Virus record (IMG/VR): IMGVR_UViG_3300025131_000031
Span: 1 to 63,847 of that record
Strand: one strand, 5' to 3'
DNA: 63,847 bases
Origin: a virus
Taxonomy: Duplodnaviria > Caudoviricetes
The position numbers and the translations under genes were made by a program. The notes below the pieces were generated by a model, which saw nothing but the letters and a program-made list of their open reading frames with translations, searched no databases and was not told where the DNA came from. Below, one piece after another: positions 15,346 through 58,455 of this stretch (the stretch's first letter is position 1; each line of letters begins with the position of its first letter).

Positions 15346-15359
15346 AGAGATAACCTTTA

Positions 15360-17167: not shown

Positions 17168-17202
17168 ACAATTCGAAATAATATTAGAAGAGAGGTTAAA
17201 AT

Positions 17203-17748: not shown

Positions 17749-17859
17749 TTATATGGTTTTATCAAAGATAGCAAAAGGAGATAATATTTTTCATTCTGGC
17801 AGAGGTATACCAAAAAAGTATAACAGGCTTGATGGCTATAAGATAATAAGAGAAGCTAA

Positions 17860-19644: not shown

Positions 19645-19974
19645 ATGGAAGTATTATTTTCAACAACAAGGATTGAAAATCCTGCTAACAATTTAGACTA
19701 TTTGCAAGTCGATGCAGAAGTTACTGAATTCAATGAAAAAGCTCAAGTGAATATTCAGTGGAGTGAAATCCCAGTAAATTCTAAAATAGCTACTTCAAAA
19801 TTCTTTAAAGATCTTAAGGTAGCATTTGAAAACATTTTGGCAAATAGACTAGTCATAAAGAAGGACACAAAAATAAATTCATTACATCAAATAGTAAATA
19901 ATGGAATAAATACTGATCTGCCAGGTACTATTGATCCTGTTAGAATTAATGCGTTTGAACAAAGAATAGTTTAG
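19645..19974 (+). CDS. hypothetical protein
   Basis: 109-aa coupled ORF. Confidence 0.6.
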   Translation: MEVLFSTTRIENPANNLDYLQVDAEVTEFNEKAQVNIQWSEIPVNSKIATSKFFKDLKVAFENILANRLVIKKDTKINSLHQIVNNGINTDLPGTIDPVRINAFEQRIV

Positions 19975-19982
19975 GAGGTTTT

Positions 19983-20132
19983 ATGTTAAAAAAGATTTTT
20001 TTCTCATAGGAAAATGGATAATCTGATCTTCTCTTTGAAGATAGTAAATTTAATAAGGAGTTGAATTCTTGTGATTGTGAAATCAATCACCTAATGGCCA
20101 ACGGCTGTACTTGTGGAGCAATGGAGGATTAA
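19983..20132 (+). pseudogene. broken ORF ending in the CxC-x4-LM-x2-GCxCG motif
   Basis: strong RBS+ATG at 19983 hits early stops; 3' part reads CDCEINHLMANGCTCGAMED*. Confidence 0.55.
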
Positions 20133-20648
20133 ATGTTAAAAACGTTATGTGAAAACGATTGGGTTTCACTATTAGATTTAAATGGTTATGTATACAGTCA
20201 TGAAACAAGATGCAACGGAGTTATTGTAGCCATTTTACCTTATAGAAGAAATGAAAAAGGTCGGCTACAATTTTTGTTAAGAAGAGAGATTACACCTTGT
20301 TGGTCTATGGAATTTGAAGATTCAGCTATAACAGGTGGATTAGAAAAGAATGATTCTATATTTACAGTTCTTAAAGAGCTTCACGAAGAGGCTGGTTATA
20401 AAGCAGAACAAAATGAATTGAAGATTTTAGGAAAATGTAGAGCTTCAAAATCTACTGATACTGAGTATCATTTATATGCGATCAATGTTCAGAATAAAGA
20501 GCAAGGAGCATTAGAAGGTGATGAACTCGATGATGATGCAATAAACAAAGATGCAAGTGTAGTCTGGTCCGATGATGCAGATTCTGTTGACCCATTGGTA
20601 TCTGTAATGTATGTTAGATTAATGAGAATATTGGGAGAAGAACTATGA
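20133..20648 (+). CDS. NUDIX hydrolase
   Basis: Nudix box ITGGLE...VLKELHEEAGY. Confidence 0.8.
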   Translation: MLKTLCENDWVSLLDLNGYVYSHETRCNGVIVAILPYRRNEKGRLQFLLRREITPCWSMEFEDSAITGGLEKNDSIFTVLKELHEEAGYKAEQNELKILGKCRASKSTDTEYHLYAINVQNKEQGALEGDELDDDAINKDASVVWSDDADSVDPLVSVMYVRLMRILGEEL

Positions 20649-20932
20649 GTGATCTATATGAATTAGTTAGATTAGAAAATCAAAGGAAACATGCAGTAAA
20701 AATAGAACTGATGCAAAAACATGGGTATAAATATAATTTCAGCACCGATGTTTGGGAAAATGATAGCCCTGAAGCTGTTAGCAGAAGAGATAAGCGAGTA
20801 ACAGGATCATTAATAGAAGCATGTTCTCTAGCTGACTTAAAAAAGATACTCCCAGCATTGAACGATCCATTGAAATATAGTCTTATGCTATTTGATGAAT
20901 CAATAATGAAGCTCATACGAGTTTCAAAATAG
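20645..20932 (+). CDS. hypothetical protein
   Basis: 95-aa coupled ORF; tail contains the 28-bp repeat. Confidence 0.55.
   Translation: MSDLYELVRLENQRKHAVKIELMQKHGYKYNFSTDVWENDSPEAVSRRDKRVTGSLIEACSLADLKKILPALNDPLKYSLMLFDESIMKLIRVSK
20888..20915 (+). repeat. 28-bp exact dispersed repeat, copy 2
   Basis: identical to 6918..6945. Confidence 0.9.
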
Positions 20933-20996
20933 CGAATGAACACATTCTTTGCTTGCTTGATATTTATTATAAATCCAAGTAGATGGAGCATATGAA

Positions 20997-21674
20997 ATGA
21001 ATTGTGAAGAATGCGGAAAATCAATAACAGGCAGAGGTAAATCTAATTATTGTCAAAGATGCTTCATGAGAATAGTCAAGCCTGGCAAAAAAGGAGGAGG
21101 TTGGAGCAAAGGATTAACAAAAGATACTGATGATAGAATTAAAAAAATGTCCATAAAAGTATCCGCTGCACTTAAAGGAAAGCCCAAGACAGAAAAGCAT
21201 GCAACAAAATTATCAAAAATTTTCAGGAAAAAATACGCAGGAAAAGGTAATCCTTTTTATGGTAAAAAACATTCAGATGATACTAAAAAAATATTATCTG
21301 AAAAGGCTATACATAGATCAAAAAAAATTAATCCTATATTCAATATTTTAAACAATATTTCGAATTCAGATACTAGTATTGAAGTTGCTGTAGAAAATTT
21401 TTTACAATCGGAAAAAATCGAATACAAGAAACAATATAGAATATATTATAATAAAATAAATTTTAAGATATATGATTTCTATCTACTAAAAGAGAATATT
21501 CTGATAGAAGTTGATGGTGATTTTTGGCATTGTAAATTAGAGAAAAAACCCAAGAATTATAAAGATATAATTGTGAATGATAAATTAAAAAATGATTTAG
21601 CTACAGAGAATGGATATAGATTAGTTAGAATATCTCAAAGCGAGTTAGATAGCGTTTGGAGGATTATAGTATGA
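20997..21674 (+). mobile_element. free-standing homing-type endonuclease: Zn finger + NUMOD3 + Vsr/DUF559-like nuclease
   Basis: CEEC..CQRC, WSKGLTK, NPFYGKKHSDDTKK (NUMOD3), TSIE, YDFYL, IEVDGDFWH, D..KN..A...GYRLVRI. Confidence 0.85.
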
Positions 21675-23218
21675 ATACTTTTCATATCCTCTGCTTAGCT
21701 GGAATCGGTGATATTCTATCACACATCACTAGACTGTCAGCAGTAGTTGCAATGAACAACCATAAGATAAAATTTTGGTTGGGAGGTTTTGGGAAGAGCC
21801 CTGAGTTCATGAAAGAAATTTTAGAAGCTGAGGGTGTTGAAGTTTCTCTAATTAAAAATCTTACATACCACAGTCAACTACCTGAAATGAGAGAATTTAT
21901 TAAGAGCAATGCTGTAAAAGAGGGAGATGTGTTTCAAGATTGGAGCTTTTGTGAGGAGATATTTCAAAACAAGGCTCCTATTTTTATGCAGTATCCGATG
22001 AGAGATCGATTCGATTATAAGTATGGACAAGATCTTCATAACTCAGAAAGACACAAGTATATTCAACACGGCCGATGTGTAGCTATACAGCCATTAACAA
22101 AAACAGGCAATGCTGAAGGTTTTGAATCTGATCTAGAGAGAGGTAGATTTTGGAGTAGAGATTGTTGGACATATATAATAGATAATCTGATTGAAGATGG
22201 ATTTACTCCTCTATTCACAGGATTAGAAGGTGAAGATTGGGGATTAGCTGATTATTGTAATGAAAAAAATTATCATTATGTCAATACATTAGGAACACCA
22301 ATAGATGAAACATTTGAAATACTAAGGTCATGCCACGGAAATATAGCTTGCAACTCATGGACATGGGAAATTACCTCTCGATGTGGAATTCCTACAGTAT
22401 GCTTCTATACAAAAAATCATTTCTTTATTCAGAATCATATTCCAGATGGCCCTTCAGATTTCTTTGACAATTGTATCATAGAAACTAATCAAGAAGCTGA
22501 TCCAGAACAATTATATCAAGCCTGGAAATATATGTATGATCATGATAAGAAACCAGATGTAAGTTACTCTGTATGCATGATCACCTATAACGATGAAGAG
22601 TGTATAGAGAAAACTATAGATAATGTTGTAGATACGGCTATTGATTCTTCAGAATTTATAGCTATAGATGGTGGTTCGACAGATAAAACTGTAGATATAC
22701 TAGAAAACAATGATTTGATAAGTGTGTTTACTAAAAAATGGGATGATGATTTTGAAGTACAGAAAAACTGTGCACTAAATAAAGCAACTAATAAATGGAG
22801 AGTATGGATTGACGCTGATGAAACCTACGAACCGATCTTCTGGAACCAACTGCCGTGGTATATTTGGCAAGCTGAAAACAATGGTGTTGACTGTATTTCG
22901 GTTCCAAGAATCAACATCATCGAAGGACTTACTGATGAAGAACTCCAAAAATATGCAGAAAGCAATGGGTGGCATCTCCAAGGATTCAGATGGGTTAACT
23001 ACCCAGATCACCAACAGAGAATATTCACAGACTCTTGCAAGTTTGTCGGCAGAACCCACGAGAGAATTACTGGTTACAAAAAAGATGCACTTCTTGTCGG
23101 AGTACACTGCTTACACCCAAAAACTAAGGAAAGACAAGAGAGAGGCTTCGAAAGAGAAAACAAACAATACAAAATAGAAGCAGATAAAATTTATGAAAGG
23201 GTTATGAAAGGAGAATAG
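21671..23218 (+). CDS. GT9-like / GT2 glycosyltransferase fusion
   Basis: N-terminal GIGD; C-terminal SVCMITYNDE, IDGGSTDKT, QKN.AL, WIDADE, YPDHQ.R, HE; start set at ATG 21671 after GGAGG. Confidence 0.8.
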   Translation: MNTFHILCLAGIGDILSHITRLSAVVAMNNHKIKFWLGGFGKSPEFMKEILEAEGVEVSLIKNLTYHSQLPEMREFIKSNAVKEGDVFQDWSFCEEIFQNKAPIFMQYPMRDRFDYKYGQDLHNSERHKYIQHGRCVAIQPLTKTGNAEGFESDLERGRFWSRDCWTYIIDNLIEDGFTPLFTGLEGEDWGLADYCNEKNYHYVNTLGTPIDETFEILRSCHGNIACNSWTWEITSRCGIPTVCFYTKNHFFIQNHIPDGPSDFFDNCIIETNQEADPEQLYQAWKYMYDHDKKPDVSYSVCMITYNDEECIEKTIDNVVDTAIDSSEFIAIDGGSTDKTVDILENNDLISVFTKKWDDDFEVQKNCALNKATNKWRVWIDADETYEPIFWNQLPWYIWQAENNGVDCISVPRINIIEGLTDEELQKYAESNGWHLQGFRWVNYPDHQQRIFTDSCKFVGRTHERITGYKKDALLVGVHCLHPKTKERQERGFERENKQYKIEADKIYERVMKGE

Positions 23219-23219
23219 A

Positions 23220-23573
23220 ATGTTAAGTTTGAGCAATCATAGAGAAAAAAATGAATATGATTATAAACTAGAAGAAGCCGATCTAGATTTAACTGAAGAT
23301 GAAATAAGTAAGATTAAAAACCATGTTATAATAAAATCAGCCGATACTGTAGAATTCGGCGTTAAGGCTGGATATAATAGCAAAAAAATTATAGTACAAA
23401 AAATAGAGTATTATAAGACAGCTTTAGATCCTAGCTGTATACCGTACTATGAAAAAAATCCTTGGTTTACTCCTTGGATTAAAACTGGATATGTCGTAGA
23501 AAAAAATGAGAGTGGTTTAAGTTTGATCAAGCCCGGAGGCTGTAGTTCAGATAATACAGTGTATGAAGTATGA
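23220..23573 (+). CDS. hypothetical protein
   Basis: 117-aa ORF with AGGAG RBS. Confidence 0.6.
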   Translation: MLSLSNHREKNEYDYKLEEADLDLTEDEISKIKNHVIIKSADTVEFGVKAGYNSKKIIVQKIEYYKTALDPSCIPYYEKNPWFTPWIKTGYVVEKNESGLSLIKPGGCSSDNTVYEV

Positions 23574-23727
23574 AAATAACTAAATTAGAAAATGGAAATT
23601 ATGAATTTGCAGTTGATAAATCTGCTTTTTCAGAAGAGCAGCAAAAAGAAATAGATAGACTAATAACTTTACCAAAAGAAGAATTTAAGAAATTAGATCT
23701 TGATATTGAAATTGTATTGAGGAAAAA

Positions 23728-24753
23728 ATGCCAAGACCAATAGTAATACATCACCTCAATGCTTTGACATTAGGTGGAACAGAAAAAATGGTGCAAATCA
23801 TGATGAAGTGGTTCGTAAAAGATCCGACTTTCAATCATGTGTTAGCGTATCAATCACAGCAAGACAGAAGTAGAGAGAAATATTTTAGAGAGATTATGAG
23901 TGAATACAAGCTCATTCCTTATGCAAGCTATCCAGAATTCATTGCAATTGTTAGAAAACTTAGACCATTTATTATCCATAGGTATTCCGCTGGAATACCA
24001 GAATTCCCATTTGTTCAACCCGTTAAGGAAAATACAAAACACTTTGTTAGCACATCCGTCTTTGGCAACCAAGATGATACAATCGACATCAGCAGAGTAA
24101 TATTCGTTAGTAAACATGTGCAACATTTAGCTAATAGATTTGGTGATAAATACAGAGTAGTTAGAAACGCTATTGAAGATCCTTATACTGAGCATTGCCA
24201 TTCGTTAGGATTAGATCATGATGTATTTGTATTCGGTCATATTGGTAGACCTGATGAAAACACCTTCGATGATATAAACCTTAGAGCTTATAAAGAGATA
24301 GAGAATGACAAAACATTCTTCTTATGGCTGCCTGTCAATGGAATGGCTCAAGTAGCAGCACAAGATCTTGGATTGAAAAACTTCGATATGCTACCAAGAA
24401 CTACGGATGAAACTGAAATTAGTAAATTTTATAATTCAATCGATGTACTAGCTCATAGTAGAAGAGATGGTGAATGTAATCCTGCAGTGATGTTTGAAGC
24501 TTTTGCTCATAGAATCCCTGTTATAAGTCACTACGGAGTTCCTTTTAATGGACATATTGAGTGCGTGGGTAATGCTGGGTTTGTAGTTCCCCCTGGAGAT
24601 GTAGAAGAATATGCTAGAATAATGCAAGCCTTTATTGACAAAAAAGTAAATTATTATGCTCTGCAAGACAATGCTTATCAAAGATTTTACGAATGGGGAA
24701 GAGCAGAGAAATGGGCTGTTGAACAATTAAATATATATAAAGAATTATTTTAG
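23728..24753 (+). CDS. GT4-family glycosyltransferase
   Basis: GGTEK, FVSK, RNAI, GHIGR, GE....MFEAF...IPVI. Confidence 0.85.
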   Translation: MPRPIVIHHLNALTLGGTEKMVQIMMKWFVKDPTFNHVLAYQSQQDRSREKYFREIMSEYKLIPYASYPEFIAIVRKLRPFIIHRYSAGIPEFPFVQPVKENTKHFVSTSVFGNQDDTIDISRVIFVSKHVQHLANRFGDKYRVVRNAIEDPYTEHCHSLGLDHDVFVFGHIGRPDENTFDDINLRAYKEIENDKTFFLWLPVNGMAQVAAQDLGLKNFDMLPRTTDETEISKFYNSIDVLAHSRRDGECNPAVMFEAFAHRIPVISHYGVPFNGHIECVGNAGFVVPPGDVEEYARIMQAFIDKKVNYYALQDNAYQRFYEWGRAEKWAVEQLNIYKELF

Positions 24754-24893
24754 AAAGTTTATAAACCAGGAAGTAAATTATTATAAACTACAGGATAGGT
24801 GTTTGAATAATTTTAAGAATACTTGTCGAGCAGAAGATATGGCTAATAAACAGTTGTCGATATATAAGGAATTGTAATGAGGAAGAAAAGGTT

Positions 24894-25442
24894 ATGAAAG
24901 GAAAAGCGGAGACTCTAAGAAAGACTAGAAATCCTAAAGACTATTTAGATGCTAATGGTAATAAGCTAAACATAGGTGATTCAGTTAGATTAGTGGAAGG
25001 TCCCGATGCTTTTGATGGTCATCTTGGTGGCGCTGAAGGAAAAATAGAAGGCTTCAATGATGATTCTAAATTCAAAATTGCAATTAGATGGGGAAATAAC
25101 AAAGAAACAGCTGGACATCACTCAAAATACTTAAGCAAATCTGATGTAGCTTTAGCTGATGGAGATTATGATATCGATGAAGATGACTCATTTCCAGAAG
25201 CAGAAGAAGAATTGTTAGATGATCATGATGGCGAAAGAGTTGATCATCCTGATCACTATAATTCTCACCCAAGTGGTATAGAAGCTATTGAAGTAGTAAG
25301 ACATTATAATTTTAATGTAGGGAATGCTCTTAAGTATCTATGGAGAGCAGGATTGAAAGATGAAAATACTGAAGTAGAAGATTTACGAAAAGCTATATGG
25401 TATATAAATGATGAAATTATGAGGTTAGAAGATGGATCTTGA
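24894..25442 (+). CDS. DUF3310-domain protein with N-terminal SH3/KOW-like region
   Basis: VDHPDHY, IEAIEV, FNVGNALKYLWRAGLK, EDLRKAIWYI. Confidence 0.8.
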   Translation: MKGKAETLRKTRNPKDYLDANGNKLNIGDSVRLVEGPDAFDGHLGGAEGKIEGFNDDSKFKIAIRWGNNKETAGHHSKYLSKSDVALADGDYDIDEDDSFPEAEEELLDDHDGERVDHPDHYNSHPSGIEAIEVVRHYNFNVGNALKYLWRAGLKDENTEVEDLRKAIWYINDEIMRLEDGS

Positions 25443-25565
25443 AAAGATTGAAGAAATAGACACATTGACATGTATTTTAAATGTTGTATATAAGTTTGCT
25501 GAAACTAATGATGAAGATGATGCAGAAATTAAAGGTAGTGAATTAGTTAATTGGGCAAAAGATAT

Positions 25566-26591
25566 ATGAATGTTCTCGTAACAGGATGTGCAGGATTTCT
25601 TGGTAGTGAATTGTGTAAGAAGCTTCTTGAAGCTGGGCATATGGTCTATGGGATAGATGATTTGTCCTGTGGTTTCAAAGAAAATTTACATGATTTTTGG
25701 GATGATGTTGATCATTTTGTATGGTTGGAAAAAGATATTAGAAATGATGATTGTTATAGATTTATAGATCATGCCTTAAGAGGTAGAAAATTAGACGTCA
25801 TATACCACTTTGCTGCTAGAGGTGAAGTATATTGGTGTCAAGATAATCCAACAAATGCTGTTGATGTAAATGTAAATGGTACTTTAAAAGTGCTCGAATA
25901 TGCAGCACAGAAGAAAGTCAAGCATTTTATATTTACAGACACTAGTGCAGAATATGATAACATAGATTTATTTCCAACTGAAGAACTTGATGCTCCTAAT
26001 GCTGAAACACCTAGAGGAATCTATTCAATTACAAAGATGACTGCAGCTCAATTCGTAAGAGCATTTAGTGAAGAGCATGGATTTGGAGCTACTATATTCA
26101 GACCATTCAATGTCTATGGACCAACTATGAATTTAGAGAGAGATATTCCTCCTGTTATTGGTAGTTTCACAAAGAGAATGTTAGAAGGCCACTCACCAAT
26201 AATTTATGGTGATGGTTCTAAGAGAAGAGATTTCATTTATGTAGATGATATTACCGAGTTGTTCATGCGAGTGCTGAGTTACAGAGAACAGGGTACGGTC
26301 AGAGCTAGCGATTATTATAGATTATTCAAAAACAATAGTCGAACTTTCAATGCTGGTACTGGAGAAAACTATAGTATCTATGAAATATATGAATTAGTAT
26401 CGAGAGAAATATTTGGAGGAAAAGACAATTGGTTAGTTCCAATGTTTAAGCAGGATCAATCAGGAGAAGCAGAAATAACATTAGCATATATGAGAAATAC
26501 TACAAGTTTTTTCGAATGGAAACCTACAACATCAATCGAAGATGGAATCAAACTAACTGTGAGATCTATTCATGAAAAAATGCAAGCATAA
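25566..26591 (+). CDS. NAD-dependent sugar epimerase/dehydratase
   Basis: VTGCAGFLGS, YSITK, FRPFNVYGP, GDG...RDFIYVDD. Confidence 0.9.
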   Translation: MNVLVTGCAGFLGSELCKKLLEAGHMVYGIDDLSCGFKENLHDFWDDVDHFVWLEKDIRNDDCYRFIDHALRGRKLDVIYHFAARGEVYWCQDNPTNAVDVNVNGTLKVLEYAAQKKVKHFIFTDTSAEYDNIDLFPTEELDAPNAETPRGIYSITKMTAAQFVRAFSEEHGFGATIFRPFNVYGPTMNLERDIPPVIGSFTKRMLEGHSPIIYGDGSKRRDFIYVDDITELFMRVLSYREQGTVRASDYYRLFKNNSRTFNAGTGENYSIYEIYELVSREIFGGKDNWLVPMFKQDQSGEAEITLAYMRNTTSFFEWKPTTSIEDGIKLTVRSIHEKMQA

Positions 26592-26802
26592 ACTATGGAA
26601 GATAAGCTGCAAAATAGAAGAAGACCGAGTATATGAAGTGTGGATCTGCCAACATGCAGATTGTAGACAGAAATTTGCATCCGTTAGAACTGATGATCAT
26701 AAAGACATAAGAAAAGTTGAACAGGATTTTAGATTGAAAACAGAACTATTTCAAGTTGATTTAGAAAAATGGGACAGTGAAGGAGATATTGATTTTAAAT
26801 GA
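26572..26802 (+). CDS. small Cys-containing hypothetical protein
   Basis: CKH...CQHADC. Confidence 0.55.
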   Translation: MKKCKHKLWKISCKIEEDRVYEVWICQHADCRQKFASVRTDDHKDIRKVEQDFRLKTELFQVDLEKWDSEGDIDFK

Positions 26803-26809
26803 TAGTAAT

Positions 26810-27050
26810 CATGTTGATTTTATTATATATATTTATACTACTGCGATATAGAAGTTAGCAGAGGAAAAAGATGTAGAAGTTGTGCCAATAAAGGAAATAG
26901 AAATGGTAAGAATGAAAATAACAGGCCGAGGGACTGGAAGGAAAGAATGGAAATTGATAACTTAAAAAATACTTTAGCTATTTCAAGCGGATATAGAATT
27001 ATTAGAATATGGTCAGATGAAATAGATTTAAAGTGGAGGGTAATGTCATA
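26810..27050 (+). pseudogene. internally deleted NUMOD3/Vsr-type endonuclease remnant
   Basis: 5' part reads YCDIEVSRGKRCRSCANKG; 3' part reads IDNLKNTLAISSGYRIIRIWSDEIDLKWR; core is missing. Confidence 0.7.
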
Positions 27051-28061
27051 ATTATTACAAAAACGCCACTTCGAATAGGATTTGCAGGTGGAGGCTCAGA
27101 TTTGCCAGAATTTTGCAAAAACTATCCAGGATCATGCGTCAATGCTACTATTGACAAGTATGTATATGTTCTCGTAAAGAAAAGATATGACAATAAAATT
27201 TACCTCAAATATTCAGAAAATGAAATAGTAGAAGATATAAAATACATAAAACATGATTTCATTAGAGAAACTCTTGACTTCATGGGAATTAACTATGGCC
27301 TTGAAATTATAAACTGGGCTGATATTCCAACTAGAGGCACAGGACTAGGATCATCATCTAGTTTTCTAGTAGGGCTATTGAATGCTCTGTATACATTAGA
27401 AGGAAAGCCTCAAGAAGCAAGAGTATTAGCCGAACAAGCATGTCATATAGAAATTGATAGATGCAAAAAACCCATTGGCTATCAAGACCAATTTGCTGCA
27501 GCTTATGGTGGATTGAATTATATGCAATTCAAGGATGATGAAGCGTATACATCCGTTACGTCTATAGGCTATAATGATAAGCAATTGTTTGAATTATCAG
27601 AAAATATTCAAATGTTCTATACAGGAATAACAAGAGATTCATCATCAATATTGAGCGAGCAATCAAAAGATTTCAAAAACTCCGATGAAGAGAAAATAGA
27701 TCAGATGTCAAAGAATGTCGACCTGGCTAATATGCTATATGGAAGAGCTATTGACAGAAACTATGATGCATTTGGTGCAGCTATGTTAGAAAACTGGGCT
27801 ATAAAGAAAACATTCAACAGAGGAATTTCAAATGCTTTTATAGATAGAATCTATGAAGTAGCAGAAAGTGCTGGTATGTATGGCGGAAAGATTACTGGAG
27901 CTGGCGGCGGAGGTTTTTTTATTGCTTATAGCCCTGTGGCTTCGAAGTCCAAAGTGATTAAAAAAGTATGTGAAGTATCTGATAGTGTGAGATATATGCC
28001 TGTTAGATTTGATCCTTATGGTAGTAGAGTGTTATTGAATTGTGAGGAATATCGCTGGTAA
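27033..28061 (+). CDS. hddA: GHMP kinase, D-glycero-alpha-D-manno-heptose-7-phosphate kinase-like
   Basis: TPLRIGFAGGGSD, GTGLGSSSS, IGYQDQFAAAYGG, GKITGAGGGG; true start may be ATA 27048. Confidence 0.85.
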   Translation: MEGNVIIITKTPLRIGFAGGGSDLPEFCKNYPGSCVNATIDKYVYVLVKKRYDNKIYLKYSENEIVEDIKYIKHDFIRETLDFMGINYGLEIINWADIPTRGTGLGSSSSFLVGLLNALYTLEGKPQEARVLAEQACHIEIDRCKKPIGYQDQFAAAYGGLNYMQFKDDEAYTSVTSIGYNDKQLFELSENIQMFYTGITRDSSSILSEQSKDFKNSDEEKIDQMSKNVDLANMLYGRAIDRNYDAFGAAMLENWAIKKTFNRGISNAFIDRIYEVAESAGMYGGKITGAGGGGFFIAYSPVASKSKVIKKVCEVSDSVRYMPVRFDPYGSRVLLNCEEYRW

Positions 28062-28091
28062 TTTTAAATTATAAGAACAATATCAGATAAT

Positions 28092-28406
28092 ATGATTAAA
28101 AAACATAGGAATGGTTCTTTTAATTCAATGAAAATTCATAATACAAAACCTGAGTTGGCTGTTGAGAGTCAACTTAAGCAAATGAGTGTTAGATTTGAAA
28201 AATAAAAAAGAATTAAGAGTAAGCAATTCGATTTCTATTTGCCAGATTATGATATGTTGATAGAAGTAGATGGTGAATATTGGCATTCTTTACCTAAGGC
28301 TGTGAAGAATGATAAATTTAAAAACAATTTAGCAAAAAATGAGGGATATAAATTGACTAGAATATGGGCTGAAGACGTATATAAAAACTGGCGGATAATA
28401 TGGTAA
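28092..28406 (+). pseudogene. Vsr/DUF559-like endonuclease pseudogene
   Basis: NTKPE...FEK*KRI..FDFYL...IEVDGEYWH...NDKFKN.LA...GYKLTRIW with in-frame TAA at 28203; N-terminal domains absent. Confidence 0.8.
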
Positions 28407-28960
28407 AAGAAGAATATATTCCAGAAAATCTTTTGCAATTCTATGCTCATATAAGCACTACTTTCCAAGAAGTATATAATGACAAGCTTGGCAACCAAAT
28501 GCTAAAAGATCTATATATCTTAATGAAGGATTCTAAAAGAATATTTCTCATAGGCAATGGAGGATCTGCAGCTATATGTGATCATATAGCTAATGACTTA
28601 ACTAAGAGATGTTTTAGAAATGCTGAAGTATTGACATCGTATCCTCTCATAACTTGCTTAGCTAATGATTTTGGTTTTGAAGAGATGTATTTGAGATGGT
28701 TACAGATTAAATGTGCAGGAAATGATGATGATTTGTTGATAGCAATATCATCAAGCGGAGAATCTCCTGATATAACACTGCCAGCTGAATACTACACGAA
28801 CACAGATATGACTGTTTTTGGAATATCTGGATTCAATGGATTTAAAACAAATGAGGTTGATAAGCATATTCATTTCAAGTCAAGAAACTATGGCCAAATA
28901 GAAATGGTAACGGAAATGATGTTGCATGGAATTATAGAGGAGATGGTAAATGCCAGATAA
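28400..28960 (+). CDS. gmhA: phosphoheptose isomerase (SIS domain)
   Basis: IGNGGSAAICDHIANDL, TCLANDFG, AISSSGESP. Confidence 0.85.
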   Translation: MVKEEYIPENLLQFYAHISTTFQEVYNDKLGNQMLKDLYILMKDSKRIFLIGNGGSAAICDHIANDLTKRCFRNAEVLTSYPLITCLANDFGFEEMYLRWLQIKCAGNDDDLLIAISSSGESPDITLPAEYYTNTDMTVFGISGFNGFKTNEVDKHIHFKSRNYGQIEMVTEMMLHGIIEEMVNAR

Positions 28961-29198
28961 AATAACTGAGCCAGAAGTAAAATGGGAATGTTCGGCTTGT
29001 GGATATGAATTAGTAGATGATCTAGATTCCAAACCTATTGGCTTGACATTTCCAATAACAAATAGCCAGGGTCAAATGATAGGAATACCTATAGAAGTTT
29101 GCCCTCATTGTAGAAGTTTGTTATTGAGTGAAATTACAATGAGAGATTTACAGATTCAATTGACAAGTAGAATTATAACTACAAACCCGGGAATATAA
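28950..29198 (+). CDS. small zinc-ribbon protein
   Basis: CSAC...CPHC. Confidence 0.6.
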   Translation: MPDKITEPEVKWECSACGYELVDDLDSKPIGLTFPITNSQGQMIGIPIEVCPHCRSLLLSEITMRDLQIQLTSRIITTNPGI

Positions 29199-29719
29199 TG
29201 TATCTAGAATATTCAGGAAGACAAAGTGGTAAGACATATAGAATGTGTCAGCAAATTGTAAATGATTGGCGCTACAAAAATGATGATCAACAGATATTGG
29301 TATGTTTGCCTCATAGAAATATGAAGTATGACATACTTTCAACAATTTCTAAAGTATTAGAAGATCTGGGAATAGATTTCCTCGCTCACTTTGAAGATGT
29401 AAAAGAATCTCTATTATTTTCATATGGCAAGGATTACTGGAGCACTGCTAATAGTAGAGATATATATAGAACTTATTATGATGAATTTGAATCAATGGAT
29501 GAGATTCAATATTTGGAAGATGGTTACTACGTATCATCGATAAGAGAAGATTCTATTCATTCTAAATATTTCAAAAAGCTTAAAGCAATGAATGGTGGGC
29601 AGTGTGCTGACTATACGAAACAGATTGCTCCTCATATAGAACTAAGTGTTCGAACAATCTGCGATTGTACAATTCAAGCTCTAATGCGAGAAGGTTGTCA
29701 ATGTGGAACAATGGATTAA
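29198..29719 (+). CDS. P-loop-like protein with C-terminal CxC-x4-LM-x2-GCxCG motif
   Basis: SGRQSGKT at the N-terminus, YYDE downstream, CDCTIQALMREGCQCG tail. Confidence 0.6.
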   Translation: MYLEYSGRQSGKTYRMCQQIVNDWRYKNDDQQILVCLPHRNMKYDILSTISKVLEDLGIDFLAHFEDVKESLLFSYGKDYWSTANSRDIYRTYYDEFESMDEIQYLEDGYYVSSIREDSIHSKYFKKLKAMNGGQCADYTKQIAPHIELSVRTICDCTIQALMREGCQCGTMD

Positions 29720-30462
29720 TGTTTAATCCAGATGATATACACATCGTTTTGATAGGGAATGATAGACAATTAGATTATAGAATCAACCTTGAGATCTTGA
29801 GGTATAATTTTGTATATGGGGACCAGTTGTGGATTACTACTGTTTACAATGGAGATGAAGATAAACTTCCTTCTGGCATTGGCGAGAATTCTTTCATACA
29901 TATCAAAGAGAACAGAGGGTATGGCCTGGGTGCTCTTGATGCTTTCAATGAAGGATTAGGATATGCTTCAATAGGATATAGACCAATCGTCGTCTTATTC
30001 AATTTTGATGTTTGGTTTTTTACAGATGGTGGATTTAAACTTTGGGTAGAGGACTTCCAAAAGAGCAGAAAATCATTTGGGGCCGGACTGTTGCCTGATC
30101 ATGAACTTCCAATGACTGATTGTATGATATTCAAGAAAGATATGCTCAATAAGATTCTTCCAATAGAAGACAAAGTTTTAAAATACAGGCAAGAAGATAA
30201 AAGGTTAGTAGAAATGTATGAAGATACTCAATTAGGGTTCTATAATATGGAAGAATTTATGCTTTATTCGATACAACGATCATCTGCTGATGTTGAAATT
30301 AATGACATGTGGTGGCAATACCAAAGAGATGGTGCTCCAAGATATAGGTGGACAGAGAAATACACATTAGCACATTCTCACGACTACGAAGAACGCAAGC
30401 AACTGTTAAAGAAGTATGAAATCACAAAGGGAAGAATGATTCCTGAATTCTTAAATCAATAG
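29719..30462 (+). CDS. putative GT-A fold glycosyltransferase
   Basis: ENRGY..GA..AFNEGL...VVLFNFDVW pattern; cluster context. Confidence 0.5.
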   Translation: MFNPDDIHIVLIGNDRQLDYRINLEILRYNFVYGDQLWITTVYNGDEDKLPSGIGENSFIHIKENRGYGLGALDAFNEGLGYASIGYRPIVVLFNFDVWFFTDGGFKLWVEDFQKSRKSFGAGLLPDHELPMTDCMIFKKDMLNKILPIEDKVLKYRQEDKRLVEMYEDTQLGFYNMEEFMLYSIQRSSADVEINDMWWQYQRDGAPRYRWTEKYTLAHSHDYEERKQLLKKYEITKGRMIPEFLNQ

Positions 30463-30660: not shown

Positions 30661-30973
30661 AAGAGAAACACTAATACCCACACAAATCGATCCAACTATG
30701 ATCGAATTTAAAAAAGATGATAAACCAAAGAAAAAGGTGAGACCAATAGTTCCATCAATCAGGTCTATTGAAGAATACAGAAGACTTTATTCTGAGTTTA
30801 TAGGAATGAATTCAGATGATATGCTTTATGAAAGCTATAGAATTTCATTAGACAAAGGAATAAGAAAGTCTAACATCACTAAACTTAAAGCTAAGCACGC
30901 AAATAGAGTAAAGATGCAAAAGGCTTCACGAAAAAGAAACAGCGGAACAAAAAAGAATTCAAGAAAAAGATAA
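30653..30973 (+). CDS. basic hypothetical protein
   Basis: 106-aa ORF, K/R-rich tail. Confidence 0.6.
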   Translation: MAERETLIPTQIDPTMIEFKKDDKPKKKVRPIVPSIRSIEEYRRLYSEFIGMNSDDMLYESYRISLDKGIRKSNITKLKAKHANRVKMQKASRKRNSGTKKNSRKR

Positions 30974-30977
30974 ATAG

Positions 30978-31006
30978 TTTATATCCTGCGATTTTTTGAT
31001 TATATT
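30978..31006 (+). promoter_or_regulatory. sigma70-like promoter upstream of the ncRNA array
   Basis: TTTATA-17 nt-TATATT, same geometry as the repeated promoters at 48-57 kb. Confidence 0.55.
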
Positions 31007-31021
31007 TATTTATATATTCCT

Positions 31022-31083
31022 ATGAAAGCAAGGTCATGAGTTACTTCTAATGGAAATAGACACTCTAGCCACTAATTCTTCAT
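31022..31083 (+). ncRNA. Y RNA-like unit 1 (62 nt)
   Basis: atgaa/ttcat outer stem; AGCAA; ggt/gcc and gagt/actc inner stems; TACTTC; upstream of rsr. Confidence 0.7.
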
Positions 31084-31124
31084 CGGCCGGTTTAAAAAAT
31101 GGAACAATTGGATTAATAAATAAT

Positions 31125-31194
31125 ATTGGATAGCAAGACAATGGGTTACTTCAAACAGATAAAAGAGATACCCGTCGTCAATTAAACTTCCAAT
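31125..31194 (+). ncRNA. Y RNA-like unit 2 (70 nt)
   Basis: attgga/tccaat; AGCAA; gac/gtc and atgggt/acccgt; TACTTC. Confidence 0.75.
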
Positions 31195-31203
31195 TCTTAC
31201 AAA

Positions 31204-31469
31204 TATTAGAAAGCAAGGAACAGAGATACTTCAAAAAGCGAACAATTAAAATAATCTTTCCGTTTAGATAGTGGAGTTTGATGAAGCTAAGCTAAACATT
31301 GAGAAATTATTGAACTCCTTTTTCCGCCGGTTCGGGAGTTAATGTGGTTAAACCGGAGCCTGATTTACTGGACAGTTTGCAGGTGAACAAAGTTAAACTG
31401 TAATTCATTCTTCTCAGTGGATGAATATACCAAGTTACTGAAAATCCTCTGACCGATCATCTTCTAATA
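31204..31469 (+). ncRNA. Y RNA-like unit 3 (266 nt) with multi-hairpin insert
   Basis: tattagaa/ttctaata; AGCAA; gg/cc and cagag/ctctg; TACTTC; four internal hairpins. Confidence 0.7.
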
Positions 31470-31579
31470 AGAAAATTAAAATAAATCTTCTCGATAGAGA
31501 GAAGAGGTAGATTGCCTCTAAACAAGCTATAATATTATGGTGGACTCCGGACTGGACCAATGCAATCTTGAAATTTTTA

Positions 31580-31660
31580 TGCTGTAGCAAGATGTAGAGT
31601 TACTTCATATAACTGGCACACGCCAGTACCAAACAGCACTCTCATCACCAATACTCAGCA
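31580..31660 (+). ncRNA. Y RNA-like unit 4 (81 nt)
   Basis: tgctg/cagca; AGCAA; gatg/catc and agagt/actct; TACTTC; internal hairpin actggc-acac-gccagt. Confidence 0.75.
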
Positions 31661-31698
31661 GACTAAGCAAATTATATCATTCCTATAGGAGTGACGTA

Positions 31699-31731
31699 GC
31701 TGGCTGTCTCATTGAGATGGCCAGTTTTTTT
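31699..31731 (+). terminator. intrinsic terminator closing the ncRNA array
   Basis: ctggctgtctc-att-gagatggccag followed by a T7 run. Confidence 0.8.
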
Positions 31732-31744
31732 ATTGAAAGGTTTT

Positions 31745-31948
31745 ATGATGAAAATATATTTCGTAACAGCTCACTGGAGGCATTATGGTATGTGTGCAGG
31801 AGTTGTAAGAGCATGGAGTAAAACTAATGCTAAGCATATAATGCATCAGAAATATAAGCGCGACTTTGAATTAAAGAATTTTTCAGCTTTAGAAATAGAG
31901 CCTGAAGGAAAAGAAGAATTGATAGATGATGTTGATTACATGGAATAA
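31745..31948 (+). CDS. hypothetical protein
   Basis: ATG after AAAGG. Confidence 0.55.
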   Translation: MMKIYFVTAHWRHYGMCAGVVRAWSKTNAKHIMHQKYKRDFELKNFSALEIEPEGKEELIDDVDYME

Positions 31949-32187
31949 TGGATAATAAAACTAAACAATTACATTTGAATGCTGCAAGGAAAGCAGGTAT
32001 AGCAAACTCTTGTACTGAAAAAATAGACTACAAGAACTTTGAAACTGCTTTAAAAAGTAGCATATTAATGTCAGGAAAATATAAGAAACCTCTTGAACCA
32101 TATCCCTGTCCTTTTTGTGAAGGATGGCATATTGGTAGAGAGATGTCAAGAAAAGAATTAGAATCACACAACATAACCCCCCTATAA
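31948..32187 (+). CDS. small zinc-binding protein
   Basis: C..K..Y...A...PYPCPFCEGWHIG. Confidence 0.65.
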   Translation: MDNKTKQLHLNAARKAGIANSCTEKIDYKNFETALKSSILMSGKYKKPLEPYPCPFCEGWHIGREMSRKELESHNITPL

Positions 32188-32202
32188 AAAGGAGGCAACA
32201 AA

Positions 32203-33807
32203 ATGGCAAAATTTGCCAAGGTATCACCAAAGAAGTCAGAACAGAAGACATTCACATCTGACGATATCACAGAAACACTCAACGAAGAAGGTGGAAAAGC
32301 TTATACACTTCCATACAAGGAACGACTTGCAACTAGAGTTATGAGCTCCTTGATCAATGAAAAGAAGTTCTATGGAGATAATACAGCTGCATTATTGGCT
32401 GATATTAAGGAATGTGGAGAAAAGGATCCTGAATTCTTGATGAAGCTTGCCGCATATACTCGAAATGTAATGTATTTCAGATCTTCACCAGTATTTGTTT
32501 TAGGACATGCTTCATTGATTAACGAAGTAAAGCCTTTCGTAAGAAAGTGGACACCTCGAATTGTACAGAGAGCTGATGAACCAGCAGAAATTCTTGCATT
32601 GATTGGAACATATTTCACAGAAAAAGGTGAAAAGGCAGTTGTTCCTAACTCAATCAAGAAGGGTTTGGCAGATACTCTCAAAAAGTTTGACGCTTATGCT
32701 CTTATGAAGTACAAGGGAGTTGGTAAGTCGGTTAACTTGTATGATGTATTCAACGTTTGTCACCCAAAGCCAGATGATCAGAAACAAGCCGATCTTTGGA
32801 AGAAGTTTATGAATGGTGAGCTTGAATCCGCTAACACATGGGAAAGAAACCTTTCAGCTGGTGGCAAAAAGACAGAAGGAGAAAAGGCTGAAATTTGGGA
32901 AGAAACAATTCCAGTAATGGGATATATGGCATTGCTTAGAAACCTTAGAAACTTTGCGGAAGCAAATATTTCTAATGAAGCTATTGATTTGGTAGTTGAA
33001 AAGCTAACAAATGAAAAGGCAGTTTTGAATAGCAAGCAGTTCCCATTTAGATTCTTCTCTGCTTGGAGAGAATTGTCTAAGGTAGCAACAGGCCGTGAAG
33101 ATAGAGGTATGTATTACGATGGCCATCCACCAGCCTCTGAACTTGCAAGAGTACTTAAGGCACCTGATAAATCTAATCTTAGAAAGTTGATTGGAGCTAT
33201 TGAAGATGCATTTGAAATTTCGATTAAGAATGTTACTCAATTGCCAGGTACTACAGTTATTATGTCGGATCACTCAGGTTCAATGACTGCACCAATTTCT
33301 GATAGATCTTCAGTTACAAATATGGACATAGCTTTAGTTCTTCACTCAATCGCTGATAAGCTTTCAAAGAAGAATGCCGGTATAATCTTTGGAGAAAGAG
33401 TAGCGACAGTTTCTTCAGAAGGTATTTCGGCAATGAAGTTTATTGATGAAATGAGAAAGAAAGATGTTGGTCATTCAACAAATGCATACAAAGCATTTGA
33501 AGCATTGATCAGATCAGGAGTATCGGTTGATCGTGTAATTCTTCTTTCTGATATGCAATGCTACAGTACAGGATTCTATTTCAGATCTTCATTGTCAGTG
33601 AACGATTCTTGGAAGAAATACAAGAAGATTGCTCCAAATGCTTATCTCCACACAGTGGATCTTTCAGGCTATGGAACATCTCAAGTTGCAATTAACGACC
33701 ATAATGTAGCACTCTATTCTGGTTGGAACACAAAGTTTCTTGATTTGATAGCACAAGTAGAAAGAGGAATTGGATCGCTAATTCAGGACATCGAAAACTA
33801 TAGATAA
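32203..33807 (+). CDS. rsr: Ro60/TROVE-domain RNA-binding protein with vWA domain
   Basis: NEEGGKAY, RADE, PNSIKKGLA, FDAY.L.KY, HPKP, TWE, MGYMALLRNLRN, SKQFPFRF; MIDAS DHSGSM; AGGAGG RBS. Confidence 0.95.
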   Translation: MAKFAKVSPKKSEQKTFTSDDITETLNEEGGKAYTLPYKERLATRVMSSLINEKKFYGDNTAALLADIKECGEKDPEFLMKLAAYTRNVMYFRSSPVFVLGHASLINEVKPFVRKWTPRIVQRADEPAEILALIGTYFTEKGEKAVVPNSIKKGLADTLKKFDAYALMKYKGVGKSVNLYDVFNVCHPKPDDQKQADLWKKFMNGELESANTWERNLSAGGKKTEGEKAEIWEETIPVMGYMALLRNLRNFAEANISNEAIDLVVEKLTNEKAVLNSKQFPFRFFSAWRELSKVATGREDRGMYYDGHPPASELARVLKAPDKSNLRKLIGAIEDAFEISIKNVTQLPGTTVIMSDHSGSMTAPISDRSSVTNMDIALVLHSIADKLSKKNAGIIFGERVATVSSEGISAMKFIDEMRKKDVGHSTNAYKAFEALIRSGVSVDRVILLSDMQCYSTGFYFRSSLSVNDSWKKYKKIAPNAYLHTVDLSGYGTSQVAINDHNVALYSGWNTKFLDLIAQVERGIGSLIQDIENYR

Positions 33808-52535: not shown

Positions 52536-52540
52536 AAAAA

Positions 52541-52645
52541 ATTAGATAGCAATAGACAAGAGTTACTTCCGGTTCAATTCCGATGTTCCCCACCATATGA
52601 GGGGAATGCCTTTAGGGGCTTTTACTCTACTAGATTTTCTTTTGA
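52541..52645 (+). ncRNA. YrlA-like Y RNA (unit 5) with permuted tRNA-like domain
   Basis: AGCAA, tag/cta, agagt/actct, TACTTC; then T arm cgg-ttcaatt-ccg, loop-closed acceptor-like stem gttcccc/ggggaat and a short D-like hairpin. Confidence 0.75.
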
Positions 52646-52655
52646 TTCATTATAA

Positions 52656-58376: not shown

Positions 58377-58455
58377 GGACCGGAAGCCTAAACTTGGTAT
58401 AGACGCCATCCCGATAAGGTGGAGACAGTAGGTTCAAATCCTACCCGGTCTACCA
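58377..58455 (+). tRNA. tRNA-Ile(GAU), C33
   Basis: ccatc-ccgataa-ggtgg, CCA. Confidence 0.8.

What the first reader, a model, noticed from the sequence alone, without database searches (positions are those of the whole stretch)
31204..31469. Giant Y-like unit carrying four tandem hairpins
Between TACTTC and the closing ctctg..cc..ttctaata lie four consecutive hairpins: ggagtttgatga/ttattgaactcc, ccggtt/aaccgg, acagttt/aaactgt and attcattc/ggatgaat, with large unrelated loops. At 266 nt it is three to four times the size of its neighbours and is not tRNA-like. It could be a multi-site scaffold, a sponge, or a precursor of small guide or antisense pieces.
Basis: partly seen in the sequence, partly recalled or inferred. 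Interest (0 to 1): 0.75.

Follow-up and report, generated by a model that had tools for sequence, protein, structure and literature searches.

The report
Oversized Y RNA beside phage Ro60
This 266-base stretch is most likely an unusually large member of a row of small "Y RNA" genes that sit in front of a marine phage's Ro60 RNA-quality-control gene, a known kind of RNA-protein partnership in a new, non-tRNA-like form.

Summary
The quoted sequences are all present at 31204-31469. The unit is 3-4 times the size of its neighbours and is not tRNA-like. It is the third of four units sharing AGCAAG-N7-9-TACTTC (4 found, 0.05 expected by chance). They lie 0.5-1.2 kb upstream of, and on the same strand as, a TROVE/Ro60 gene at 32203-33807.

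The 5' and 3' ends form the family's docking stem: a basal helix, a one-base bulge, AG:CU pairs, an internal loop and an upper helix. The closest relative found (Ro60 55% identical) has an orthologous 173-nt unit with three compensatory pairs in that stem and a closing stem plus four clean hairpins (z -3.9), but an unalignable interior.

In the window itself only two of the four hairpins (H1, H4) are thermodynamically favoured. H2 and H3 are weak, and the whole unit folds no better than shuffled sequence (z -0.25).

Assembled contigs from two metatranscriptome runs (one study) cover 31033-31704 and not the flanking genes, a weak hint of transcription.

Best reading: a Ro60-bound Y-like RNA with a large non-tRNA effector domain. 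I found no support for a sponge or guide-precursor role. Phage Ro60 with Y-like RNAs is already known, so this is a new variant of a known kind.

The parts
31204..31232 (+). 5' strand of the docking (Ro60-binding-type) stem. It comprises basal helix 31204-31210/11, a bulged A, AG 31212-13, CAA loop, GG 31217-18, CAGAG 31221-25, and A-UACUUC 31226-32.
   Evidence: Motif statistics are. Pair probabilities are 0.66-1.0. The same architecture appears in 15 other units from five phage lineages.
31233..31272 (+). A-rich leader of the apical domain with no stable structure. It holds the unit's only CGAA (31239-31242).
   Evidence: Only helices of p 0.26-0.55 are predicted here. The sequence was read.
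31273..31318 (+). Hairpin H1: 12 pairs, 3 of them G-U, with a 22-nt loop. Its 3' arm carries the pyrimidine motif UUGAACUCCUUU.
   Evidence: p about 0.6; z -2.5, 9 of 500 shuffles. Motif test.
31327..31356 (+). Hairpin H2 (CCGGUU/AACCGG), which is weak.
   Evidence: p <=0.07; z -0.5. It competes with AACUCCU/GGGAGUU, p 0.33.
31372..31401 (+). Hairpin H3 (ACAGUUU/AAACUGU), which is weak.
   Evidence: p about 0.24; z -1.2.
31403..31426 (+). Hairpin H4: 8 pairs with an 8-nt loop. It is the best-supported internal helix.
   Evidence: p about 0.97; z -3.5, 4 of 500 shuffles.
31445..31469 (+). 3' strand of the docking stem: UCCUCUG, A, CC, GAUCAU, CU, UCUAAUA.
   Evidence: The 11-mer AAATCCTCTGA is identical in the ortholog L264 U1. 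The architecture pattern occurs once in the window and in 0 of 2000 shuffles.
31019..31087 (+). Y-like unit A (short).
   Evidence: Motif. Model R1 scores 5.1 bits, E 1.4. It resembles L264 U2.
31124..31195 (+). Y-like unit B (short).
   Evidence: R1 scores 13.4 bits, E 0.017 in a 3-kb search. Duplex shown.
31578..31662 (+). Y-like unit D (short).
   Evidence: R1 scores 9.1 bits, E 0.16. Motif.
31698..31726 (+). Terminator-like hairpin followed by a T run, at the end of the array.
   Evidence: 13 pairs, of which 6 are G-C.
32203..33807 (+). TROVE/Ro60 (Rsr-like) gene, the presumed protein partner.
   Evidence: Pfam PF05731, E 3.5e-33. The nearest solved structures are 9kop and 9l5y, E 4e-25. 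The DxSGSM MIDAS-type residues are invariant in the alignment.
52540..52647 (+). Fifth Y-like unit, inside the tRNA array. It has the same type of handle (AGCAAT...GAGTTACTTC) plus a compact tRNA-like module.
   Evidence: R1 scores 19.4 bits over the full model, E 0.014 on the whole window and 6.8e-05 locally, with alignment. Fold.

Best explanation
The stretch encodes a large Y-RNA-like (Yrl) non-coding RNA. It is one of four made from a common transcription unit just upstream of the phage's own Ro60/Rsr gene.

Its 5' end (31204-31232) and 3' end (31445-31469) pair into the stem-bulge-stem handle that all five Y-like units of this phage share. By analogy with characterised Y RNAs, that handle docks on the Ro60 ring.

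The roughly 212-nt apical domain replaces the tRNA-like module of YrlA-type Y RNAs with a multi-hairpin domain: H1 and H4 are solid, the middle part is uncertain. It most likely acts as an effector or tether module that brings a different partner to Ro60 than the other units do. A host exoribonuclease such as PNPase is the precedent. It may also control access to the Ro60 cavity.

Shown here: the shared motif, the handle architecture, its covariation with an ortholog, linkage to the Ro60 gene, and presence in RNA libraries.

Inferred: Ro60 binding, processing into a discrete 266-nt RNA, and the tether function.
For: Linkage to Ro60:
- Four units share AGCAAG-N7-9-TACTTC on the + strand only (4 found, 0.05 expected). 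They lie upstream of a TROVE gene, with a terminator-like hairpin after the fourth unit.
- Arrays of TACTTC-bearing units upstream of TROVE recur in all 6 viral loci and in most of the 34 metagenome loci. In 32 aligned units, 27 of 31 predicted pairs show compensatory changes. That includes a bulged base followed by an invariant A-U and a perfectly covarying G-C (17 units) or U-A (15 units) pair.

Handle architecture:
- The giant's arms have the same layout as 15 other window-type units from five lineages: basal helix, one-base bulge, AG:CU, loop, GG:CC, upper helix, N-UACUUC.
- Its 21-nt 5' motif is identical to that of a short unit in L349.

Ortholog in L264/L265, the closest relative found (Ro60 55% identical):
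- Both arms are conserved: 26 of 35 aligned positions on the 5' side and an identical AAATCCTCTGA on the 3' side.
- The basal stem has three consecutive compensatory pairs: A-U to G-C, G-C to A-U, A-U to G-C (sequences).
- That 173-nt ortholog folds into a closing stem plus four hairpins, with z -3.92 and only 1 of 200 shuffles as good.

RNA libraries:
- Contigs from two metatranscriptome runs cover 31038-31704, and 31033-31226 plus 31207-31663.
- Elsewhere in the 1.8 kb laid, the only RNA piece is 30742-30944, at low depth. DNA contigs run on across the region.

Precedent:
- Phage phiLo Ro60 binds two upstream Yrl RNAs and host PNPase in vitro (PMC12135203; abstract and passages read).
- Bacteria carry two or more Y RNAs with different modules (PMC4201824; section 6 and passages).
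Against: - The whole-unit fold is no better than shuffled sequence (z -0.25).
- By energy alone the closing duplex is matched by 91 of 500 shuffles of the downstream sequence.
- When the whole 741-nt array is folded as one RNA, the closing stem is not predicted (p 0.0).
- H2 and H3 are weak.
- The interior cannot be aligned with the ortholog, so no internal hairpin has covariation support.
- The published literal Ro-binding motif GNCGAAN0-1G is not in the 5' strand. The only CGAA lies in the apical domain.
- The base before UAC is A, so the conserved YUAY reads AUAC.
- No Rfam Y RNA family matches, even at E<=10. My model R1 does not report the giant.
- The RNA evidence is assembled contigs from one study. 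It shows no strand and no ends, and DNA carry-over cannot be excluded.
- No variants were seen in two DNA runs, so there is no population-level test.
Confidence: 0.7

Rival explanations
1. The Y-like handle is real but the large interior is not a functional domain. It would be drifting filler or the remnant of an insertion into a once-short unit, so the 'four hairpins' are incidental.
For: - The interior folds no better than chance and its middle part has no dominant structure.
- It is 93 nt longer than the ortholog's interior and cannot be aligned with it.
- It matches no RNA family.
Against: - The ortholog also keeps a large interior (about 125 nt) that folds significantly well into four hairpins (z -3.92). 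Large size and a multi-hairpin layout are therefore maintained across lineages whose Ro60 proteins are only 55% identical.
- H1 and H4 beat shuffles.
- Other phage Ro60 arrays also keep large non-tRNA units of 147-269 nt.
Confidence: 0.17
2. The stretch is a precursor or spacer of a polycistronic transcript that is cut into smaller RNAs (hairpin-derived guides, antisense pieces or a sponge). It would not be a single 266-nt Y RNA.
For: - The units abut: B ends at 31195-31207 and the giant starts at 31204, so processing of a precursor is needed anyway.
- RNA contigs span several units.
- In M. smegmatis, YrlA and YrlB are cut from one precursor and YrlA is cleaved further (PMC4201824, passages).
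Against: - There is no complementarity to either strand of the window beyond chance (best 12 nt, E 0.8).
- Both handle strands are conserved and covary with the ortholog, which argues that the two ends work together.
- No tRNA-like element inside the unit could direct RNase P or RNase Z cleavage.
Confidence: 0.08
3. It is not an RNA gene at all. It would be an intergenic region with chance complementarity, or a regulatory leader for the small ORFs at 31712-32187 and the Ro60 gene.
For: - The fold energy is at chance level.
- The closing duplex energy is at chance level.
Against: - The motif statistics.
- The family-wide architecture.
- The compensatory pairs with the ortholog.
- A terminator-like hairpin lies between the array and the ORFs.
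- In L264 the array sits directly before Ro60 without those ORFs.
Confidence: 0.05

Closest known systems
Yrl1 and Yrl2 of Thermus phage phiLo with phage Ro60 (PMC12135203; PDB 9kop, 9l5y)
   Same: - Y-RNA-like genes lie immediately upstream of a phage-encoded Ro60.
- Each has a 5'-3' stem flanking a bulge or internal loop.
- The phiLo protein is the nearest solved structure to this window's TROVE protein by sequence (E 4e-25).
   Different: - phiLo has two units found through a CGAA motif. Here there are four, plus one in the tRNA array.
- The handle here reads AGCAAGG...UACUUC without CGAA.
- This unit is 266 nt with a multi-hairpin apical domain.
- The sizes of Yrl1 and Yrl2 were not in the passages I read.
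YrlA / YrlB bacterial Y RNAs (Chen et al. 2014, PMC4201824; Rfam RF02553, an accession taken from earlier scan notes)
   Same: - Encoded within 2 kb of the Ro60 gene on the same strand.
- Several Y RNAs per genome share a handle and differ in the apical module.
- A conserved YUAY-type element (UUAC/AUAC) follows the 5' strand.
- YrlA also has four stem-loops (V, T, AS, D) in its apical domain.
   Different: - No T-arm, D-arm or acceptor-like stem is detectable.
- The literal GNCGAAN0-1G motif is absent.
- The unit is about twice the 118-143 nt of the 32 aligned tRNA-like units.
[quoted passage not shown]
- There is no Rfam match.
Large non-tRNA Y-like units in related phage Ro60 arrays (L161:2382-2650, 269 nt; L138:2292-2501, 210 nt; L131:1690-1878 and 2455-2643, 189 nt each; L161:1552-1742, 191 nt; L150:1762-1908, 147 nt) and the ortholog L264:2545-2717 (173 nt)
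   Same: - Same position in an array before Ro60, same type of handle, and an interior that is large and not tRNA-like.
- Four of the six share TTGATCTCCTTT. The giant has TTGAACTCCTTT, the only match with <=1 mismatch in the whole window on either strand, reached by 7 of 5000 shuffles of the interior.
   Different: - Apart from that motif, the interiors are not alignable.
- A generic longest-match test is not significant: 27 of 300 shuffles reach it.
- These units are undescribed metagenomic sequences, not a curated family.

Membership tests
Y RNA / bacterial-phage Yrl RNAs (Ro60-associated) | Encoded close to (within about 2 kb of) and on the same strand as a Ro60/Rsr (TROVE) gene | tested here: met
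   The unit ends at 31469 and the TROVE gene starts at 32203, both on the + strand. Pfam PF05731 E 3.5e-33.
Y RNA / bacterial-phage Yrl RNAs (Ro60-associated) | The 5' and 3' ends pair into a stem-bulge-stem handle shared by the co-encoded Y RNAs | tested here: met
   Pair probabilities are 0.66-1.0. The layout is the same in 15 other units. Three compensatory pairs separate it from ortholog L264 U1. The energy alone is not significant.
Y RNA / bacterial-phage Yrl RNAs (Ro60-associated) | Literal Ro-contact motif in the 5' strand (GNCGAAN0-1G in bacteria, GGUCCGA in vertebrates; PMC4201824) | tested here: not met
   The 5' strand reads UAUUAGAAAGCAAGGAACAGAG. The only CGAA, at 31239-31242, lies after UACUUC in the apical domain. 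The clade uses a variant instead: a bulge followed by AG[C/U]AA or A[G/U]UG.
Y RNA / bacterial-phage Yrl RNAs (Ro60-associated) | Direct binding to Ro60, or Ro60-dependent accumulation | not testable with these tools
   This needs EMSA or immunoprecipitation.
Y RNA / bacterial-phage Yrl RNAs (Ro60-associated) | Expressed as a discrete, stable small RNA | tested here: inconclusive
   RNA-library contigs from two runs of one study cover 31033-31704 and not the flanking genes. Contigs show neither ends nor strand, and DNA carry-over cannot be excluded.
YrlA subtype (tRNA-mimicking Y RNA) | T-arm, acceptor-like stem and D-arm in the apical domain | tested here: not met
   No hit inside the unit from ARAGORN, the Rfam tRNA model or model R1 with filters off. 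R1 does score 20-85 bits on tRNA-like units of Ro60 loci only 26-28% identical, and 19.4 bits on the window's fifth unit.
YrlA subtype (tRNA-mimicking Y RNA) | Conserved YUAY after the 5' strand of the handle | tested here: inconclusive
   Units A, B and D read UUAC. The giant reads AUAC, so its first base is a purine.
Rfam Y RNA families (Y_RNA, YrlA) | Covariance-model score at or near the gathering threshold | tested here: not met
   No Y RNA family is reported at gathering score or at E<=10. The test is weak, because clear tRNA-like units in 8 related loci also gave only tRNA hits.

The most novel reading that the evidence does not exclude
The giant unit, its 173-nt ortholog and the 147-269-nt non-tRNA units of other phage Ro60 arrays would form a distinct, undescribed class of 'large Y RNAs'.

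In this class the apical domain presents (or masks within a helix) a pyrimidine tract of the UUGAUCUCCUUU type. That tract resembles the anti-Shine-Dalgarno end of 16S rRNA (resemblance recalled, not tested).

Such an RNA could direct phage Ro60 and its nuclease partner to ribosome-binding sites of mRNAs, or to factors that handle the 3' end of 16S rRNA. For example, the giant's CUCCUUUUU (31315-31323) is complementary to AAAAAGGAG (32186-32194), just upstream of the Ro60 start codon.
Probability: 0.07. Interest if true: 0.75.

Novelty: new variant of a known kind. Interest (0 to 1): 0.4.

Why it matters
Ro60 with Y RNAs is a conserved RNA-surveillance machine, and what the variable Y RNA modules recruit is still largely open outside the tRNA-like YrlA/PNPase case.

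This marine T4-like phage has RecA, gp32-like, DnaB-like and thymidylate synthase genes. It carries its own Ro60, at least 25 tRNA genes and five Y-like RNAs. One is tRNA-like and four are not, and one of those four is a 266-nt multi-hairpin RNA with a conserved counterpart in its nearest relative.

If the large apical domain recruits a partner of its own, it offers a compact system for asking how Y RNA modules programme Ro60. It would also show that phages diversify these modules.

By itself, however, it extends a known theme (PMC4201824, PMC12135203) rather than opening a new one.

Tried and rejected
1. tRNA-likeness of the four hairpins (V/T/AS/D equivalents): nothing from ARAGORN, Rfam or model R1. 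Rejected as untestable homology.
2. Antisense or sponge targets inside the window: blastn-short gave only chance-level matches.
3. Close relatives in the phage GenBank set: blastn of the array found no match. tblastn found 99 records with TROVE, all under 60% identical and the best 29%.
4. The metagenome scan with the Ro60 protein returned 34 loci. The only close one (100%) is the same contig, with 2 differing bases outside the unit.
   - 3 of 117 loci had TROVE. L012's repeats are a coding repeat.
   - 0 of 102 new loci had TROVE.
6. The genome contigs pattern scan returned 120 loci, none with TROVE. They are dominated by one coding motif.
7. Population variants for covariation: two DNA runs showed no other letters in the unit.
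8. RNA runs:
   - Absence of RNA contigs over 31759-32400 is not evidence of silence.
9. MAFFT alignment of the giant with six large units of relatives misaligned the handle and was not used.
10. General enrichment of CTCCTT in arrays is weak: 0.32 against 0.19 per kb, from 11 and 19 counts.
11. My automatic unit caller is noisy and calls coding-region false positives. No census of unit sizes is claimed from it.
12. The R1 hit inside the Ro60 coding sequence (32590-32661, 15.5 bits) is not structurally conserved in L264, so I treat it as chance.
13. Supplementary tables of Chen et al. 2014, which list 22 phages with YrlA, could not be read. They may contain comparable large units.

Full report
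**Setting.** The window is a 63.8-kb fragment of an IMG/VR virus record, estimated about 23% complete.
- It carries replication and recombination genes of the T4 type: RecA, gp32-like, DnaB-like helicase, thymidylate synthase and a 5'-3' exonuclease.
- It has a sugar/heptose-type biosynthesis cluster.
- It has 25 tRNA genes at 48.8-60.3 kb.
- Near-identical DNA is held by at least 14 marine metagenome runs.
- At 32203-33807 (+) lies a 534-aa TROVE/Ro60 protein (Pfam PF05731, E 3.5e-33). Its nearest solved relatives by sequence are 9kop and 9l5y (E 4e-25), the Ro60 of Thermus phage phiLo according to PMC12135203 (passages read).

**The observation.**
- The unit is the third of four that share AGCAAG-N7-9-TACTTC, at 31027, 31132, 31212 and 31586, all on the + strand. 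Four were found against 0.05 expected, and 0 of 100 shuffles reached four.
- A terminator-like hairpin with a T run follows at 31698-31726.
- The neighbours measure about 69, 72 and 85 nt, so 266 nt is indeed 3-4 times larger.
- Nothing tRNA-like is detected inside it by ARAGORN, Rfam or my own model.

**Fold of the unit.** Thermodynamically the unit as a whole is unremarkable: -54.2 kcal/mol, z -0.25. The opposite strand gives z +0.52. Pair probabilities and shuffle scores in the isolated unit:

| Element | Probability | Shuffle test |
|---|---|---|
| Basal closing stem | 0.66-1.0 | - |
| CAGAG/CUCUG | 0.86-1.0 | - |
| H1 | about 0.6 | z -2.5 |
| H2 | <=0.07 | not significant |
| H3 | about 0.24 | not significant |
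| H4 | about 0.97 | z -3.5 |

- An alternative helix, AACUCCU/GGGAGUU (p 0.33), competes with H1 and H2.
- When the whole 741-nt array is folded as one molecule, the closing stem is lost.
- The energy of the closing duplex alone is reached by 91 of 500 shuffles.
- The case for the unit therefore has to rest on comparative evidence.

**Distant relatives.** Loci encoding Ro60 proteins 32-43% identical (6 viral; 33 metagenomic beyond the window's own contig) carry rows of 2 to about 11 TACTTC-bearing units upstream of the gene.
- Most units contain a circularly permuted tRNA-like module: a hairpin right after UACUUC, then a T-arm, a 7-bp acceptor-like hairpin and a D-arm. This is the YrlA architecture of Chen et al. 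2014 (PMC4201824, section 6 read). In that description a conserved YUAY begins the V loop. Here it is the UUAC of UUACUUC.
- In an alignment of 32 such units, 27 of 31 predicted pairs show compensatory changes.
- The handle is a 6-bp basal stem, a one-base bulge, an invariant A-U, a perfectly covarying G-C (17 units) or U-A (15 units), an internal loop and an 8-bp upper stem.
- Rfam reports none of these units as Y RNA, so Rfam's silence on the window is weak evidence.
- A covariance model built from them (R1) scores 20-85 bits on units of Ro60 loci only 26-28% identical to the window's.
- In the window R1 gives only weak local matches to the handles: B 13.4 bits, D 9.1 bits, A 5.1 bits. It does not report the giant. 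That is expected for a handle split by about 212 nt.

**The window-type handle.** The window's version of the handle is a basal stem, a bulged A or U, AG:CU, a CAA loop, GG:CC, a small loop, (A/U)GAG:CUCU and then N-UACUUC.
- It recurs in L264, L349, L338, L347 and L086, with different and mutually complementary basal stems.
- A pattern scan with AGCAAGGNNNWGAGNTACTTC found 17 viral stretches. Five have TROVE within the fetched locus, and a sixth (L349) lies on a contig that carries TROVE.
- L349 carries exactly the giant's 21-nt 5' motif, on a short unit.

**The ortholog.** An alignment-based scan found two near-identical contigs (L264, L265) whose Ro60 is 55% identical over the full length. 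This is the closest relative found.
- Their array of three units lies directly upstream of Ro60.
- The first unit, L264:2545-2717 (173 nt), matches the giant in both arms: 26 of 35 aligned positions on the 5' side and an identical AAATCCTCTGA on the 3' side.
- Counting back from the bulge, the three innermost basal pairs are A-U, G-C, A-U in the window and G-C, A-U, G-C in L264. These are three consecutive double changes that keep pairing (sequences).
- This supports pairing of 31204-31213 with 31461-31469 and the identity of the giant as one unit.
- The ortholog's interior cannot be aligned with the giant's. On its own it folds significantly well (-43.2 kcal/mol, z -3.92, 1 of 200 shuffles; centroid equals MFE) into the closing stem plus four hairpins of 6, 6, 9 and 7 pairs.
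- A large multi-hairpin apical domain is therefore conserved as an architecture across these two lineages. Two lineages cannot prove any single internal helix of the giant.

**Other large units.** Related arrays also contain non-tRNA units of 147-269 nt with long basal stems.
- Four of the six share TTGATCTCCTTT.
- The giant has TTGAACTCCTTT at 31310, in the 3' arm of H1. It is the only match with <=1 mismatch on either strand of the window, and 7 of 5000 shuffles of the interior produce one.
- A generic longest-common-match test is not significant: 27 of 300 shuffles reach it.
- CTCCTT is not clearly enriched in arrays overall.
- I keep the motif as a lead only.

**RNA evidence.** Two metatranscriptome runs from one study hold about 45% of the sampled words of 30900-32300.
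- Their contigs cover 31038-31704 (667 nt), and 31033-31226 plus 31207-31663.
- The only other RNA piece in the 1.8 kb laid is 30742-30944, at low depth. DNA contigs extend over the flanks.
- This fits an abundant RNA running from unit A to the terminator.
- Contigs give no strand, ends or levels, and DNA carry-over cannot be excluded. I count it as a weak hint.

**A fifth unit.** R1 also finds a full-length match at 52540-52647, between tRNA-Lys and tRNA-Arg: 19.4 bits, E 0.014 on the whole window and 6.8e-05 locally.
- It has the handle AGCAAT...GAGTTACTTC.
- It has a short T-arm-like hairpin (CGG/UUCAAUU/CCG), a 7-bp acceptor-like hairpin and a small D-like hairpin.
- The phage therefore does have a tRNA-like Y RNA, about 19 kb from Ro60. 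[quoted passage not shown]
- The four units beside Ro60 are then the non-tRNA types.

**Interpretation.** Most likely (about 0.7) the stretch is a Ro60-docking Y-like RNA whose large apical domain is an alternative effector or tether module.
- The docking and the tethering are inferred from established knowledge:
  - Y RNA tethers Rsr to PNPase in Deinococcus and Salmonella (PMC4201824, abstract and introduction).
  - phiLo Ro60, its Yrl RNAs and host PNPase form complexes in vitro (PMC12135203, abstract and discussion passages).
- The rivals are:
  - a real handle with a non-functional interior (about 0.17);
  - no RNA gene at all (about 0.05).

**Novelty.** Rows of Y RNA genes beside Ro60, in phages too, are in print (PMC4201824, PMC12135203). 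Earlier notes of this scan report arrays of three to six units in other genomes.
- What is new is the form:
  - a handle without the literal CGAA motif;
  - a 266-nt unit with a multi-hairpin, non-tRNA apical domain that has a conserved 173-nt counterpart.
- My two literature searches did not surface a description of such large non-tRNA Y RNAs. The supplements of Chen et al. 2014 could not be read.
- I rate it a new variant of a known kind, with interest 0.4.

Noticed in passing
window 52540-52647 (+): A fifth Y-like unit sits inside the tRNA array, between tRNA-Lys and tRNA-Arg. It has the same type of handle (AGCAAT..GAGTTACTTC) plus a compact T-arm, acceptor-like and D-like module. It is not called by ARAGORN or Rfam.
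   Followed up: partly
window 31470-31577 (+): A 108-nt spacer between the giant unit and unit D has a 7-bp hairpin (31486-31505) and a second imperfect stem. It lacks the Y-like motif but is included in the RNA-library contigs. Its role is unknown.
   Followed up: no
window 32590-32661 (+), inside the Ro60 coding sequence: The best R1 score in the 3-kb search (15.5 bits) is a handle-like stem with GCATTG...AATC inside the gene. The structure is not kept in the 55%-identical L264 gene, so it is probably chance.
   Followed up: partly
L131:1270-2920 and L161:1160-2910; L002:3391-3462: Related phage loci carry up to 10-11 TACTTC-bearing Y-like units in a row before Ro60, interleaved with true tRNA genes.
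   Followed up: partly
L131:1820, L138:2372, L150:1847, L161:1635: Large non-tRNA Y-like units (147-269 nt) of related arrays share TTGATCTCCTTT. In two of them the motif can pair with a nearby AAAGAAAGG tract whose order relative to the motif is swapped between loci.
   Followed up: partly
L264:2027-2490: A strikingly GC-rich ORF, with a signal-peptide-like start and repeated charged helices, lies immediately upstream of the Y-like array in an otherwise AT-rich phage contig. It looks like a recent foreign insertion.
   Followed up: no
window 31712-32187 (+): Two small ORFs (78 and 79 aa, no Pfam match) lie between the array's terminator and the Ro60 gene. The second has a CPFCEGWH zinc-ribbon-like motif. 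Both are absent from the L264 locus.
   Followed up: no
window 12205-30462 (+): A long block of sugar-modification genes: a heptosyltransferase-methyltransferase fusion, a GHMP kinase, a SIS isomerase, an epimerase/dehydratase and several glycosyltransferases. It suggests heptose-type glycan synthesis by the phage.
   Followed up: partly
window 48940-49009 and 58377-58452 (+): Rfam's tRNA model reports two further tRNA-like genes that ARAGORN does not list. ARAGORN in turn lists two (54206-54289, 58287-58362) that Rfam does not.
   Followed up: no
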